From Crassostrea angulata (taxonomy: Eukaryota), in NCBI RefSeq assembly GCF_025612915.1, contig NC_069114.1, positions 49,706,639-49,770,638 on the forward strand: DNA of 64,000 nucleotides, given 5' to 3'. This document shows positions 50,958-57,079 of this stretch, in pieces. The notes beneath the pieces were generated by a model, which ran no database searches, had not been told where the DNA came from, and saw only the letters and a list, made by a program, of their open reading frames with translations. Made by a program: the position numbers and the translations under genes. Every line of letters begins with the position of its first letter. The first letter of the stretch is position 1.

Positions 50958-51133
50958 CTAAGTGTCTGAGGCGCTGTTGAGCTCAGACAGCCGCGCATGG
51001 TAAGCCACTAGACTGGCGTAGATCCCAGCGTTATAGCGGTAGGCACTCAGTAGATACGGTGACAGCGACACTTTCTTGACGGCAGACTCCCGGTCAGATT
51101 CGGTCACAAAATTTCCCTTCATCTGGATTTCAT
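50958..51133 (-). CDS. T-box gene terminal exon
   Basis: Acceptor ttttgtag. Encodes DEIQMKGNFVTESDRESAVKKVSLSPYLLSAYRYNAGIYASLVAYHARLSELNSASDT followed by TAG, in the same frame as ORF 50958-51179. Confidence 0.6.
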
Positions 51134-51829
51134 CTACAAAATAATAATTAAGATTGCAATAACTTCCAGGAAAAGGCAATGAAAGACACTAAGAGATTAA
51201 AGGGCGTTTCCGTCAGCTGAGCATGTTTACCTTCGTTAGGATGGACCACAATAGACGGACTCGTCCACGGAAAAATCAGGTGAGAATCGCTGATTCCTTT
51301 GCTTCTCTCGTCACTGGCAATGTCACCATCTGAAGAAAATTGAAGATTTGTTAACTGAGACAGAGAACAGACTGTAAATTAACAAACTTGTGAGTGAGGA
51401 AAGTATGACATCATGGCAGTGTTCAAGGTCAAAGTTCACGTCACGTTTAGACCCCGCAGTAGTTATGGTGTATCTATTCGGGGTTTTTTCGAAAGTGTTA
51501 GCATACTAAGGATAATTTGGAATGGGTGAAATGTAAGAAAACGTGTACTATAAATCAACAACAGTTAAATTAGTAATAAACACGTTTATGTTGTTTTTGG
51601 GGTGGTGGTGATTTTGTGCGTGTGTGTGTGGGGGGGGGGGGTTCTTGGTTGAATTTTAATGCTTACCTGTTCCAGTAGAAAAAATTTGGTCAGTCTTGCT
51701 GTCTTTTCCATCTAAGTGCCTTCGTCTCAGTCTTTTGTACCTACAAACACAACAAACCATCAAAGTACTGAAGTACTGAATGCCGGGCTCTTTTGGCGTG
51801 TCTTTATGCATATTGTGTAGTAAAGACTG

Positions 51830-51898
<69 letters not shown>

Positions 51899-55142: not shown

Positions 55143-55176
<34 letters not shown>

Positions 55177-57079
55177 CTATCAAGGTTTAACTTGAAGACA
55201 CTGTAATTCAATAAAAACTGCATTGAAAAAAAATTATAAAAGTAAGATGTTGTTAAGAAAAGACAACCAGGCCTAACCTAACGAAGAAAACGAAAAATAA
55301 TTATTCTGCTGCTCCGAAACTCCGAGAAAAAGTGCGTCCAAAATCGGGAGTTCATCCAACCCTTATCTGCCCCTCTCCCCCTTACTCGTGGTGAACACGA
55401 TATATTAGTTTGCAATTAATTTTTTTAAATATTTCCATACGTATTCCCTTCGTTGCCTCCAAAATAAAAAAATAAATATAGATTTATTTGGTACCTTATA
55501 AGTTTTTAATAAACATAAGCTTTTAAAGCTGCTTGGTCCGATTTTTTTGTAATTACAGAATCAAATTTTTTTTCCATACAAATCATTTATCTTAGGAAGT
55601 TATGGACTTTCTCCTATTTACACCAGCAGAATCAGTCTCCTTTCAAAGTTAGAAATATTTAAAGTAAATAAAAATAATTTCTCTTTGGGCAAACGAAAAA
55701 ACAAACCAAAATGCATCACGGGAATGTTTAGAAAAGGAAACCACGTGGTTTCGTCCCCCGAATGATTGGGGTTATTCAACCCGCATGCTATGCATCGATT
55801 GTAAAGAAAGCAGACTTTGGAAATATTAGTGAACAAAACATACACATGTTTATTTGTAATTTGTCTGATCATTTCGACCTTTATTTAAAGCGATGTCAAA
55901 GTCGTAATACAACTATACCCTTCTCGTCGTCAGGGGTGAAACTTAACATGAGGCGAAATAACGCGGTACCATTTAATGTCGTTTGTTTTGTTAGCAAATT
56001 TTGTACGTATTTTTCTTCATTGAAATTTGACATAATTGACGGGTAAAACTACTGCAATGTCTATTATTATACATATACTAAGCATAGCCATCGTTTAAAA
56101 GCGTGCATAAAATTTGACATAAAATCGGACCAAGCAGCTTTAAACGGCAATAAAAGAATTCGCCGTCCATATGTTAGACACTGACCTTCCGCCTCGGTTG
56201 ATGATCATCTCGGTCTGGATTTCGTTGAATGCCATCCACAGGTGCGCGTCCAGCACGCTCACCCTCAACCCCTCCTGCTCATAAGACAAGTTCCCAGGAG
56301 TGTCTATCCCCGGGGGTAACTGCTGGTCGGGCGCCCACTCCCCCTGGGTCGGGGTGTGTCTCCCGCCGTTCTTTGTTGCCTCCCCCTGTAGCCTGAGTAG
56401 TTCGCGCTGTGGACTTTCGGCAGAGCGCGGGTCCCGATACAGCGGTGACTTGATGACGCATTGTTGTGTAGTCTGGGTTCTGTCCTCCTCCTTTGGGATC
56501 CCAGTGTGTGAAGGGTAATCAAGGCCCGATGCCGTTCTCATAGATGTGTTTACCAATTCGACAGAGTCTTTGTGATAGGTAGTCTCAAAATACCTGCACC
56601 TCGGATTACCAACATCCTCTAACGACGGACGCACACCTGTCAGAACCACCCCACCGTGGTCCGCACCTCGCACTGCGTCCTCCTCAGGGGGCTGTAGGCG
56701 CGGGCATTCAGGGTGGTATTCCTCCCTTTGTCGCGATGGTGGGAAATACTGAGCATTGTCAAACGGGATTTCTGGAATGACTTTTTTAGTCGTCAGGTCA
56801 AGTGGCTGAAAAAAGTATATTTTACTCAATAATGATACTATACAAGCTATACAAGCTGCTATAATTTCATGCTGCGTAATCAAAAAAAGTAATCCACACA
56901 AAACCCAGAGGTATATGCTTTGAAGAAAAAAAAATAAACAAAATATACAAAATCTTTGGCTGCGTTTATATTCACCCTGCTTTGTTTCATTTTCAACATG
57001 TGTAAAATAAGCACAATCCAAACTTTCTTAAATCATAAAATCTTACCTCTTCCATTGCAGCAAAACGATCTCTCGCCAT
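50958..57079 (-). CDS. T-box transcription factor (divergent; mixes Tbx6-like and Tbr/Eomes-like motifs); gene span, 6 coding exons, about 461 aa
   Basis: Exons on the minus strand are 57047-57079 (MARDRFAAMEE), 56186-56805, 53218-52951, 52649-52444, 51313-51231 and 51133-50958. The T-box domain reads [100 protein letters not shown]...|[16 protein letters not shown]...[38 protein letters not shown]. The intron inside GGRRMFP is at a classic T-box intron position. Phases are consistent (0,2,0,2,1) and the total is 1386 nt including TAG. Confidence 0.75.
51231..51313 (-). CDS. T-box gene exon 5 (tentative)
   Basis: This is the only acceptor (cattgccag) that keeps the frame open between exon 4 (phase 2) and the terminal exon. 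It encodes (S)DERSKGISDSHLIFPWTSPSIVVHPNE with donor G|gtaaac. The polypyrimidine tract is weak. Confidence 0.4.
51761..52104. repeat. Interspersed/duplicated segment, copy 1 (in T-box intron 4); includes the (CT)n tract at 51834-51894
   Basis: About 90 percent identical to 61151-61812 apart from a 350-bp indel. Shared blocks are caaagtactgaagtactgaa.gccgggctcttttgg.gtgtct.aatgcatattgtgtagtaaagactgaaaatct(CT)n and aattctctcgaaattaaaaaaa...ggctctttgtgt...tatagcggaagctttt.ctttgacgctgtttggttttttgtttacttttgaagttgtgctatttatag.aacattggcgatttgcctg...cagcca..actctg...agcagagcc.ggctaaaaat. Confidence 0.6.
51834..51894. repeat. (CT)30 microsatellite
   Basis: Direct. Confidence 0.9.
52444..52649 (-). 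CDS. T-box gene exon 4
   Basis: Acceptor ttttcag. Encodes [68 protein letters not shown]. Donor AG|gtcagt. Confidence 0.8.
52951..53218 (-). CDS. T-box gene exon 3
   Basis: Acceptor attccag. Encodes (R)[89 protein letters not shown]. Donor AAC|gtaaga. Confidence 0.8.
53266..53327. repeat. (GA)n microsatellite 48 bp upstream (in the intron) of T-box exon 3
   Basis: Direct. Confidence 0.9.
53393..54667. mobile_element. Non-autonomous hAT-like DNA transposon (1275 bp) with 8-bp TSD AACTATAT, in T-box intron 2
   Basis: Left terminus is CAGGCATGGGGTAATCG. Right terminus is GAGTAATCGTGCCCATGCCTG, whose reverse complement begins CAGGCATGGG. Both are flanked by perfect direct repeats AACTATAT (53385-53392 and 54668-54675). 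Both subterminal regions are packed with the palindrome GTAATCGATTAC, with about 20 TAATCGATTA copies. The internal 0.9 kb has no long ORF. Confidence 0.6.
56186..56805 (-). CDS. T-box gene exon 2 (N-terminal region and start of T-box)
   Basis: Acceptor ttttttcag|CCACTTGAC. It forms the lower part of ORF 56140-57021, whose N-terminal 70 aa are intronic. It ends ...TEMIINRGG(R) at the donor AG|gtcagt. Confidence 0.75.
57047..57079 (-). CDS. T-box gene exon 1 (start codon; short)
   Basis: tctgcATGGCGAGAGATCGTTTTGCTGCAATGGAAGAG|gtaaga. It is in frame with exon 2, but support is modest because the exon is short. Confidence 0.45.

What the first reader, a model, noticed from the sequence alone, without database searches (positions are those of the whole stretch)
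50958..57079. Divergent T-box transcription factor with a hybrid subfamily signature and an altered HKYQPR motif
The encoded T-box domain is unambiguous ([30 protein letters not shown]). It combines Tbx6-like features ([28 protein letters not shown]) with Tbr/Eomes-like features (YVHPESP...[15 protein letters not shown]). It replaces the nearly invariant HKYQPRxHIV with [10 protein letters not shown]. The non-T-box regions are short and unique. This looks like a fast-evolving, possibly lineage-specific T-box paralog rather than a canonical Brachyury/Tbx2/Tbx1 ortholog.
Basis: partly seen in the sequence, partly recalled or inferred. Interest (0 to 1): 0.6.

Follow-up and report, generated by a model that had tools for sequence, protein, structure and literature searches.

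The report
Oyster T-box gene, old non-canonical class
This is a real, expressed oyster gene for a T-box transcription factor; its odd "HKYVIR" motif is the hallmark of an old, little-studied T-box class that runs from sponges to amphioxus and that vertebrates apparently lack, not a one-off oddity.

Summary
On the minus strand, 57079-50958, lies an intact seven-exon (not six) GT-AG gene encoding a 491-aa protein. It has a full-length Pfam T-box (E=1.8e-62). A 1.7-kb assembled transcript from a public run matches all seven exons, so [10 protein letters not shown] is in the mRNA and is not a splicing artefact. The window comes from an ostreid oyster. Orthologues exist in Crassostrea virginica (with a conserved downstream neighbour) and Saccostrea, and dN/dS in the T-box is 0.03.

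The gene is not a canonical Brachyury, Tbx2, Tbx1 or Tbx6 orthologue. However, the altered motif is not lineage-specific and the domain is not a Tbx6/Tbr hybrid. It belongs to a clade I call K, with members in molluscs, an annelid, hemichordates, echinoderms, amphioxus and sponges. Clade K is defined by TEMIxNR (25/26 members versus 1/217 others), by loss of the motif's Pro and His, and by NPFAKAFRD. Support comes from an NJ bootstrap of 85-89% and a 25-52 bit class-HMM margin.

The DNA-contact residues are invariant. The lost Arg and His belong to a structural polar triad, not to the DNA interface. Clade K probably equals the Tbx7 (or Tbx8) class of Sebé-Pedrós et al. 2013; that is from memory and was not verifiable here. 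Verdict: a new member of a known kind, of modest interest.

The parts
50958..57079 (-). Coding span of the T-box gene (ATG at 57079, stop TAG ending at 50958): 7 exons, 491 aa
   Evidence: Spliced ORF of 1476 nt with all GT-AG introns. Gapless alignment to the 491-aa proteins P0001 and P0002. Transcript L001 aligns in 7 blocks.
57047..57119 (-). Exon 1: at least 40 nt of 5'UTR plus the first 11 codons (MARDRFAAMEE); CDS part 57079-57047
   Evidence: L001 nt 1-73 align to 57119-57047 at 98.6%. Donor GAAGAG|gtaaga.
56186..56805 (-). Exon 2: disordered N-terminal region plus the start of the T-box (…[19 protein letters not shown])
   Evidence: L001 72-693 aligns here at 96.8%. pLDDT is below 55 for residues 1-180. 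This region is similar only among oysters.
52951..53218 (-). Exon 3: central T-box ([29 protein letters not shown]…[13 protein letters not shown])
   Evidence: 82% nucleotide identity to the C. virginica exon. dN/dS 0.026.
52444..52649 (-). Exon 4: C-terminal T-box, including [10 protein letters not shown] (52631-52602), FIAVTAYQN and the minor-groove helix NPFAKAF
   Evidence: dN/dS 0.038. Strand 314-325 has pLDDT about 97.
51667..51740 (-). Exon 5: basic linker (R)YKRLRRRHLDGKDSKTDQIFSTGT, a likely nuclear localisation signal (inference)
   Evidence: L001 1166-1241 aligns here. YKRxRRR is invariant in oyster orthologues.
51231..51329 (-). Exon 6: acidic stretch plus the conserved IFPWT motif
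   Evidence: L001 1239-1340 aligns at 100%. IFPWT is invariant in 6 oyster sequences. A [FLS]PW motif recurs in other molluscan clade members.
50759..51133 (-). Exon 7: C-terminal conserved helix PYLLSAYRYNAGIYASLVAYHARLSELN, stop at 50958-50960, then at least 199 nt of 3'UTR
   Evidence: L001 1339-1715 aligns at 97.6%. Predicted helix 459-487, pLDDT about 70. Near-invariant in oysters.
57037..57375 (-). Promoter / 5'UTR block conserved with the C. virginica orthologue
   Evidence: blastn of L002 9689-10019 against the window: 77% identity over 341 nt, immediately upstream of and into exon 1.

Best explanation
The locus is an intact, transcribed, seven-exon gene of an ostreid oyster. It encodes a sequence-specific T-box transcription factor.

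The gene belongs to an ancient but rapidly diverging T-box class, called clade K here. Clade K has members in sponges, amphioxus, hemichordates, echinoderms, an annelid and many molluscs. No vertebrate or ecdysozoan sequence fell in it among roughly 500 hits retrieved. Three features define the class:
- TEMI[ILV]NR instead of TEMI[IV]TK in the DNA-facing A-B loop.
- An aliphatic strand (HKY-x-[VIL]-x-I-x-I) instead of HKY[QE]PRxH[IV].
- NPFAKAFRD.

How it most likely works. Shown: the T-domain fold is predicted with very high confidence, and the residues that read DNA in Brachyury are invariant (R69, F213, F217; here the first R of GRRMFP and the two F of NPFAKAF). Inferred: it binds T-box half-sites (AGGTGTGA-like) by inserting the C-terminal helix into the minor groove, like other T-box proteins.

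The lost Arg and His of the motif are not DNA contacts. In human Brachyury they form a structural polar triad (R169-H171-D93) beside a hydrophobic cleft. In clade K this triad is dissolved class-wide and replaced by beta-branched and aliphatic residues. The change is therefore expected to remodel a surface cleft or the domain's packing (inferred: stability or partner binding), not base recognition.

The unique parts are a disordered N-terminus, a basic linker, an IFPWT motif and a C-terminal amphipathic helix. They are conserved only in oysters and presumably carry regulatory and cofactor functions (inferred).
For: Gene and expression:
- Spliced ORF.
- Transcript contig L001 with an uninterrupted CDS matching all 7 exons.
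- A second 491-aa product on a 1547-nt contig at 86% identity (P0002).

Family:
- Pfam T-box E=1.8e-62.
- Matches to solved structures of Brachyury, TBX5, TBX3, TBX1 and TBX21 at E=1e-44 to 1e-50.
- AlphaFold pLDDT 90-98 over residues 181-370.
- Foldseek target-normalised TM 0.87-0.97 and rmsd 1.4-2.4 Å to T-domain structures.

Constraint:
- dN/dS is 0.032 against C. virginica in T-box exons, with pS 0.66.
- dN/dS is 0.118 in the T-box against L001, versus 0.56 in the N-terminus.
- C. virginica has the same 7-exon layout and a conserved neighbour exon.

Class membership:
- The NR signature is in 25/26 clade members versus 1/217 others, and that one is itself clade-like.
- His171 equivalent: 0/26 versus 199/205. 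Pro168 equivalent: 4/26 versus 201/205.
- NJ bootstrap for the 23-sequence clade is 85-89% under three distance models; clade K plus vertebrate Tbx6 gets 0%.
- The window domain scores 271 bits on a clade HMM without oysters, 244 on a non-mollusc clade HMM and 238 on a deuterostome-only one. The best canonical class is Tbx6/16 at 219.
- Echinoderm clade members score higher on a mollusc-only clade HMM (239-270) than on any canonical class (219 or less).

Structure and function:
- DNA contacts and the polar triad are taken from PMC11828899.
- R69 and F217 equivalents are invariant in 26/26 and the F213 equivalent in 25/26.
Against: - The tree is neighbour-joining on about 190 columns. No ML or Bayesian program was available.
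- Within-clade identities (46-55%) barely exceed between-class identities (42-48%). Long-branch attraction of several fast-evolving lineages is therefore a real risk.
- Sub-clades are poorly supported: molluscs 27-41%.
- Strict orthologues, sharing the N- and C-terminal regions, were found only in Ostreidae. The relation to the other molluscan sequences may be paralogy.
- DNA binding, target sites and expression stage are not tested.
- The equation of clade K with a published class name rests on memory. The paper could not be opened.
Confidence: 0.78

Rival explanations
1. One reading: an oyster-specific, fast-evolving paralogue that split recently from a canonical class (Tbx6-like or Tbr-like) and then changed its HKYQPR motif on its own.
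For: - N- and C-terminal regions are alignable only among Ostreidae.
- T-box identity to the nearest non-ostreid bivalves is only 47-54%.
- Tbx6/16 is the best-scoring canonical class (219 bits).
- NCBI pipelines call the relatives 'TBX6L-like'.
Against: - The same derived states (NR, loss of Pro and His, AKAFRD) occur in sponges, amphioxus, hemichordates, echinoderms, gastropods and other bivalves.
- An HMM built only from deuterostome members outscores every canonical class by about 19 bits or more.
- NJ support for clade K plus Tbx6 is 0%.
- Tbr is among the worst-scoring classes at 170 bits.
Confidence: 0.08
2. It is the divergent lophotrochozoan orthologue of Tbx6/16/Dorsocross. That class is notorious for not forming a clean clade, so clade K would simply be invertebrate Tbx6.
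For: [quoted passage not shown]
- Tbx6/16 is the runner-up class in HMM scoring.
- Automated names are 'TBX6-like', 'tbx6' and 'TBX6L-like'.
Against: - Vertebrate Tbx6/16/VegT and Ciona Tbx6 keep the ancestral TK and QPRxH states. Sponge members of clade K already have the derived states, so Tbx6 nested in K would need reversals.
- Rat TBX6 scores 234 on the clade K HMM against 359 on its own class and 287 on Tbx4/5.
- Echinoderms hold both a canonical protein retrieved with a Tbx6L query (Diadema P0483: TK, QPRFH, AKGF) and clade K members (Lytechinus P0119, Acanthaster P0074, crinoids).
- NJ support for clade K plus Tbx6 is 0%.
Confidence: 0.1
3. Clade K is an artefact: several unrelated fast-evolving T-box lineages pulled together by long-branch attraction, so the oyster gene is an 'orphan' T-box of unresolved origin.
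For: - Within-clade identity (46-55%) is close to between-class identity (42-48%).
- Internal nodes are weak (22-45%).
- The first unlabelled tree gave only 60% support for the clade.
Against: - Discrete shared states are hard to get by attraction alone: NR in 25/26 versus 1/217, plus AKAF+RD and the loss of His.
- A post-domain '…ALYG' motif is shared by sponge and ambulacrarian members, outside the aligned T-box.
- Cross-phylum HMM tests work in both directions.
Confidence: 0.1
4. Decaying or non-functional gene copy (pseudogene) whose motif change reflects relaxed constraint.
For: Loss of a nearly invariant family motif; weak conservation of the N-terminus (dN/dS 0.56 against L001).
Against: - Intact ORF with 6 canonical introns.
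- Assembled transcripts in two taxa.
- T-box dN/dS 0.03 across saturated synonymous divergence.
- The motif itself (HKYVI-x-IT) is invariant across three oyster genera.
Confidence: 0.01

Closest known systems
Tbx7 (or Tbx8) class of Sebé-Pedrós et al. 2013 (PNAS 110:16050) and Sebé-Pedrós & Ruiz-Trillo 2017: T-box classes found in sponges and some invertebrate bilaterians and absent from vertebrates. This includes the sponge 'TbxPor' genes of Holstien et al. 2010. Recalled from memory; the papers are not in the held library.
   Same: The taxon distribution found here matches my recollection: sponges (Amphimedon, Ephydatia), Lottia, Saccoglossus and Branchiostoma present, with no vertebrate or ecdysozoan in the clade among the hits retrieved. 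The clade is separate from Brachyury, Tbx1/15/20, Tbx2/3, Tbx4/5, Tbx6 and Tbr.
   Different: I could not obtain the published reference sequences or the text, so the name is unverified. TBX8 is reported in the cnidarian Clytia (bioRxiv 10.1101/369959), and no cnidarian fell in clade K here. That makes Tbx7 the likelier label. The class signature described here (NR loop, dissolved polar triad) is, to my knowledge, not described.
Brachyury / TBXT (solved structures 6F58, 6F59, 1XBR)
   Same: It is the best PDB sequence match (174.7 bits, 47% identity). It shares Ala in NPFAKAF where all other classes have Gly. It has the same fold (TM 0.87-0.93) and the same DNA-contact residues.
   Different: Clade K lacks NEMIVTK, HKYEPRIH and AKAFLD. 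NJ support for clade K plus Brachyury is only 35-45%. The Brachyury HMM gives 202 bits against 271 for the clade K HMM. Oysters have a separate bona fide Brachyury (C. gigas EKC28765, listed in PMC5363035).
Tbx6/Tbx16/VegT/Dorsocross class
   Same: It is the best-scoring canonical class for the window domain (219 bits). Annotation pipelines name several clade members after it. The class is itself phylogenetically unstable (PMC10809584).
   Different: Tbx6-class proteins keep TK, QPRxH and AKGF. NJ bootstrap with clade K is 0%. The HMM deficit is 25-52 bits.
Oyster 'B' paralogue (C. virginica 'mls-1-like' P0296; Saccostrea echinata P0134 and P0293)
   Same: Same clade: TEMIIN[RK], an aliphatic strand (FQKYLVRISL), grouped in clade K.
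   Different: Only 46% identical in the T-box. NPYSKGF replaces NPFAKAF. The termini differ. In S. echinata it lies on a different contig from the orthologue of this gene. It is not present in this window.

Membership tests
T-box transcription factor family (Pfam PF00907) | Full-length T-box domain above the Pfam gathering score | tested here: met
   210.9 bits against a cut-off of 26; residues 194-371 cover profile positions 2-181 of 182.
T-box transcription factor family (Pfam PF00907) | T-domain (Ig-like) fold with C-terminal helices | tested here: met
   AlphaFold pLDDT 90-98 for residues 181-370. Foldseek target-normalised TM 0.87-0.97 and rmsd 1.4-2.4 Å to TBX1, TBX5, T, TBX3 and T-bet. 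This is a prediction, not a solved structure.
T-box transcription factor family (Pfam PF00907) | DNA-reading residues (Brachyury R69, F213, F217; PMC11828899) | tested here: met
   Present in the window protein (GRRMFP, NPFAKAF). Invariant in 26/26, 25/26 and 26/26 clade members.
T-box transcription factor family (Pfam PF00907) | Actual binding to a T-box element | not testable with these tools
   Needs EMSA, PBM or SELEX with the recombinant domain.
Canonical T-box classes in general | HKY[QE]PRxH[IV] strand with the R169-H171-D93 polar triad | tested here: not met
   The window has [10 protein letters not shown], so the triad reads D-R-T. His is absent in 26/26 clade members against 199/205 of the others.
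Brachyury | Groups with Brachyury orthologues; NEMIVTK and AKAFLD signatures | tested here: not met
   Signatures are absent except Ala in AKAF. NJ support for clade K plus Brachyury is 35-45%. HMM 202 bits against 271.
Tbx6/16/VegT/Doc | Groups with Tbx6-class proteins | tested here: not met
   NJ bootstrap 0%. HMM 219 bits against 244-271 for clade K. Caveat: the class is unstable in published trees.
Tbr/Eomes/Tbx21 | Groups with or scores best on Tbr-class proteins | tested here: not met
   HMM 170 bits, among the lowest classes. 44% identity to TBX21. Caveat: the Tbr HMM was built from only two sequences.
Clade K (probable Tbx7 class) | TEMI[ILV]N[RK] in the A-B loop | tested here: met
   The window has TEMIINR. 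25/26 clade members have NR and one has NK, against 1/217 others.
Clade K (probable Tbx7 class) | Monophyly with sponge, deuterostome and mollusc members | tested here: met
   NJ bootstrap 85-89% over 300 replicates and 3 distance models. Cross-phylum HMM margins.
Clade K (probable Tbx7 class) | Identity with the published class 'Tbx7' (reference sequences of Sebé-Pedrós et al. 2013) | not testable with these tools
   Paper and supplementary alignments are not held. No library paper uses the name in this sense.

The most novel reading that the evidence does not exclude
The whole class shares two changes. One is TK->NR immediately before the base-contacting Arg, in the DNA-facing A-B loop. The other is replacement of the structural polar triad R169-H171-D93 by aliphatic residues. 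Together these could give the class a DNA-site preference, dimer geometry or cofactor surface different from every characterised T-box protein. The oyster gene has its own conserved IFPWT motif and C-terminal helix, and would then be a tractable entry point to a functionally unexplored branch of a major developmental transcription-factor family.
Probability: 0.2. Interest if true: 0.55.

Novelty: new member of a known kind. Interest (0 to 1): 0.3.

Why it matters
T-box factors are core developmental regulators. Nearly everything known about them comes from the classes that vertebrates and flies retain.

This locus shows that oysters carry at least two expressed or predicted genes of a class that is present from sponges to amphioxus but apparently missing in vertebrates. 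The class is consistently mis-named by annotation pipelines: 'TBX5-A-like', 'TBX6L-like', 'TBX19-like', 'TBX20-like', 'mls-1-like' and 'uncharacterized'. A simple residue signature (TEMIxNR, no Pro or His in the HKY strand, AKAFRD) would let annotators recognise it.

There is also a structural point. The motif treated as 'nearly invariant' can be replaced wholesale while the DNA-reading residues stay fixed. That is useful for interpreting human T-box variants in this strand. For oyster biology the practical value is a corrected seven-exon model and a candidate lineage-restricted developmental regulator.

Tried and rejected
1. Literature on the Tbx7/Tbx8 classes. Three full-text searches and two direct look-ups of Sebé-Pedrós 2013 found nothing usable. 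Only a passing 'TBX8' in the Clytia preprint turned up. A sponge T-box search found nothing. The class name therefore rests on memory.

2. No open paper on an oyster or mollusc T-box family was found. The C. sikamea genome paper only mentions Tbx4/5 under selection.

The 96%-identical P0001 was used for that search and for structure prediction.

4. My last protein search used P0225, hoping it was an invertebrate Tbx6. It is gar TBX6L, and the list was almost all vertebrate. Only Diadema P0483 was informative.

5. The profile search with the clade alignment returned mostly short proteins from all classes. Scores formed a continuum (305 down to 227 bits), so it did not give a clean census of the clade.

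6. An alternative exon that would restore HKYQPR: none found in 64 kb with canonical T-box queries.

7. Pseudogene: rejected.

8. A tandem T-box cluster in the window: rejected; there is only one gene.

9. Species identity was not resolved. No annotated protein more than 61% identical exists in the database. The nearest are Logan-only sequences at 96% and 86%.

10. Midpoint rooting of the NJ tree fell inside clade K because of the long oyster-B branch. Rooting was ignored and only bipartition support was used.

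
Full report
**1. What is in the sequence**

The window is AT-rich (about 36% GC) eukaryotic DNA with microsatellites. The exception is [14 protein letters not shown], which forms only after splicing.

Reading the three minus-strand frames and the splice sites gives seven exons:
- 57079-57047
- 56805-56186
- 53218-52951
- 52649-52444
- 51740-51667
- 51329-51231
- 51133-50958

All introns are GT-AG, and the ORF is 1476 nt / 491 aa.

**2. Independent support for the model**

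The best database hit, P0001, is also 491 aa and 96% identical without gaps. It sits on a 1715-nt contig assembled from run ERR10659104 with an uninterrupted CDS. I read that as a transcript. blastn of the contig against the window gives seven blocks whose ends coincide with my exon ends, at 96-100% identity. It also extends the gene to at least 57119 (5'UTR) and at most 50759 (3'UTR). A second 491-aa product, P0002 (86%), lies on a 1547-nt contig.

The motif [10 protein letters not shown] lies wholly within exon 4 and is present in the mRNA. tblastn with canonical T-boxes finds no other T-box exon in the 64 kb.

**3. Family and organism**

- Pfam T-box matches at E=1.8e-62 over profile positions 2-181 of 182.
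- All solved T-domains match at E=1e-44 to 1e-50, with human Brachyury first (174.7 bits) and TBX5 close behind (171).
- Named relatives are oysters: C. virginica LOC111137664 (58-61%), Saccostrea cucullata 'TBX5-A-like' (53%) and S. echinata 'TBX6L-like' (54-55%).
- The C. virginica locus has the same seven-exon layout.
- It shows nucleotide similarity in the T-box exons (80-82%), in the promoter and exon 1 block (77% over 341 nt), and in an exon of the downstream neighbour (window 47834-47597).

The window gene is therefore the positional orthologue in an unidentified ostreid oyster.

**4. Selection**

Against C. virginica, T-box exons 3+4 show dN/dS = 0.032, with synonymous sites nearly saturated (pS 0.66). 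Against the 97%-identical transcript, dN/dS is 0.118 in the T-box, 0.56 in the N-terminus and 0.29 in the C-terminus.

HKYVI-x-IT is invariant across three oyster genera. So are IFPWT and PYLLSAYRYNAGIYAS-x-x-AYHAR-x-x-ELN in the C-terminal part. The gene is functional, and within oysters its DNA-binding domain is not fast evolving.

**5. The altered motif is a class character**

Tabulating the motif in all hits showed non-canonical versions in many taxa:
- Gastropods: Batillaria (HKYVVQITIQ), Nucella, Haliotis, Babylonia, Plakobranchus, Elysia, Lottia.
- Bivalves: Pinctada, Mercenaria, Mya, Dreissena.
- Hemichordates: Ptychodera, Saccoglossus.
- Echinoderms: crinoids (Anneissia, Antedon), a sea star, a sea urchin.
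- Amphioxus (BRAFLDRAFT_87620).
- Sponges: Amphimedon, Ephydatia.

An annelid (Paralvinella) joins the clade on other features (TEMIINR and AKAFRD; its HKY strand could not be read).

These same proteins, and essentially only these, carry TEMI[ILV]NR instead of TEMI[IV]TK: 25/26 versus 1/217, and the single exception is itself clade-like. They have Ala in NPFAKAF followed by RD or RE. Oysters also have a second, very divergent paralogue of this type ('mls-1-like' / 'TBX20-like').

**6. Phylogeny and class scoring**

I built a labelled set of 69 T-box domains. It included human T, TBX1, TBX3, TBX5 and TBX20 and mouse TBX21, with sequences taken from PDB alignments and named hits.

- The 23-sequence clade K has neighbour-joining bootstrap support of 85-89% under three distance corrections.
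- Clade K plus vertebrate Tbx6 is never recovered (0%).
- Clade K plus Brachyury gets 35-45%.

In class-HMM scoring the window domain gives:
- 271 bits on a clade K HMM built without any oyster
- 244 bits on non-mollusc members
- 238 bits on deuterostome members only
- 219 bits on Tbx6/16
- 214 bits on Tbx4/5
- 202 bits on Brachyury
- 195 bits on Tbx2/3
- 170 bits on Tbr

Conversely, echinoderm clade members score higher on a mollusc-only clade K HMM than on any canonical class. Echinoderms also hold a canonical protein retrieved with a Tbx6L query (Diadema P0483). A motif just after the T-box (…ALYG) is shared by sponge and ambulacrarian members.

So the 'Tbx6/Tbr hybrid' description does not hold. 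The gene belongs to a distinct class.

Caveats:
- No ML or Bayesian software was available.
- Internal nodes are weak.
- Within-class identity (46-55%) is only slightly above between-class identity (42-48%), whereas Brachyury and Tbx2/3 keep 72-84% across phyla.
- Long-branch attraction cannot be excluded by the tree alone.
- Tbx6/Doc is known to be unstable in trees (PMC10809584).

The discrete signatures are the stronger argument.

**7. Structure and likely mechanism**

The AlphaFold model of P0001 predicts the T-domain at pLDDT 90-98 (residues 181-370). [10 protein letters not shown] forms a long beta-strand (314-325). The N-terminus and linker are disordered, and there is a C-terminal helix at 459-487 (pLDDT about 70). 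Foldseek aligns the domain to TBX1, TBX5, Brachyury, TBX3 and T-bet with target-normalised TM 0.87-0.97.

According to the human Brachyury structure paper (PMC11828899):
- DNA is contacted by the A-B loop, the c-c' loop and the C-terminal helices.
- The specific contacts are R69 and F213, plus F217 in the minor groove.
- R169 and H171, the R and H of HKYEPRIH, form a hydrogen-bonded polar triad with D93 next to a hydrophobic cleft.

In clade K the R69, F213 and F217 equivalents are invariant. His is absent in 26/26, Pro in 22/26, Arg is variable, and the D93 position drifts to E, Q or R.

My inference is that base recognition of T-box half-sites is retained. The motif change remodels packing or a surface cleft rather than the DNA interface. 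The class-defining TK->NR change sits in the DNA-facing loop two residues before the base-contacting Arg, and is the more plausible place for any change in DNA-binding behaviour. None of this is experimentally tested.

**8. Comparison with what is known, and novelty**

From memory, Sebé-Pedrós et al. (2013) and Sebé-Pedrós & Ruiz-Trillo (2017) defined T-box classes Tbx7 and Tbx8, found in sponges and some invertebrates and lost in vertebrates. The distribution found here fits. Because TBX8 is reported in a cnidarian and no cnidarian fell in clade K, Tbx7 is the likelier name. I could not open these papers, so the label is a lead, not a test.

Orthologues are already predicted in public oyster annotations, although mis-named. 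I therefore rate this as a new member of a known kind. Two modest additions are a simple residue signature for the class and the observation that a 'nearly invariant' structural triad is dispensable.

**9. Verdict**

- Observation: confirmed, with the exon count corrected.
- Interpretation: partly supported. The gene is non-canonical and its class diverges quickly between phyla. It is not a hybrid, the motif is not lineage-specific, and within oysters the domain is strongly constrained.
- Interest: 0.3.

Noticed in passing
window 58060-58412: Minisatellite: a 50-bp unit repeated 7.1 times (93% matches; also reported as a 149-bp period), about 1 kb upstream of the T-box gene's first exon. It produced the repetitive pseudo-ORFs seen in the frame translations.
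   Followed up: partly
window 51834-51894 and 53265-53326: Perfect or near-perfect (TC)n and (GA)n dinucleotide microsatellites of about 30 units, inside intron 4 and intron 2 of the T-box gene. The second ends about 47 nt upstream of the exon 3 acceptor.
   Followed up: no
window 57037-57375 and 57646-57780: Non-coding blocks upstream of and into exon 1, conserved with the C. virginica orthologue (77% over 341 nt and 70% over 140 nt). This is despite saturated synonymous divergence in the coding exons. They are candidate promoter or enhancer elements.
   Followed up: partly
window 47597-47834: 81.5% nucleotide match to the first annotated part of the downstream neighbour of the C. virginica T-box gene (a 1096-aa product with no Pfam hit). 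The neighbour is therefore conserved between the two oysters.
   Followed up: partly
window 49692-49794: A roughly 100-nt element that matches C. virginica L002 5309-5437 in both orientations at 78%. It is a palindromic or inverted-repeat element, possibly a MITE shared between oyster genomes.
   Followed up: no
window 31055-35133 (+): A very long single-exon ORF (1125 aa, then 220 aa after one stop) encoding a multi-C2H2 zinc-finger protein (zf-C2H2 E=7.6e-46). It lies in the most GC-rich part of the window (46%).
   Followed up: partly
window 5382-6305 (+) and 37306-38145 (+): Large exons of two other genes: a flavin amine oxidase (PF01593, E=3.5e-25) and a FAM184-type coiled-coil protein (PF15665, E=9.7e-39).
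   Followed up: partly
P0121, P0122, P0123, P0126, P0127 (database proteins, not in the window): Several predicted proteins carry two or three tandem, highly divergent T-box domains. P0121 is from Caenorhabditis nigoni. These are probably fused annotations of tandem T-box gene arrays, and they are unrelated to the oyster clade.
   Followed up: no
P0134 and P0293 (Saccostrea echinata), P0296 (C. virginica): A second oyster paralogue of the same class. It has FQKYLVRISL and an altered minor-groove helix (NPYSKGF or NPHSKGF instead of NPFAKAF), so one of the two DNA-inserting Phe residues is replaced. The two S. echinata copies lie on one contig.
   Followed up: partly
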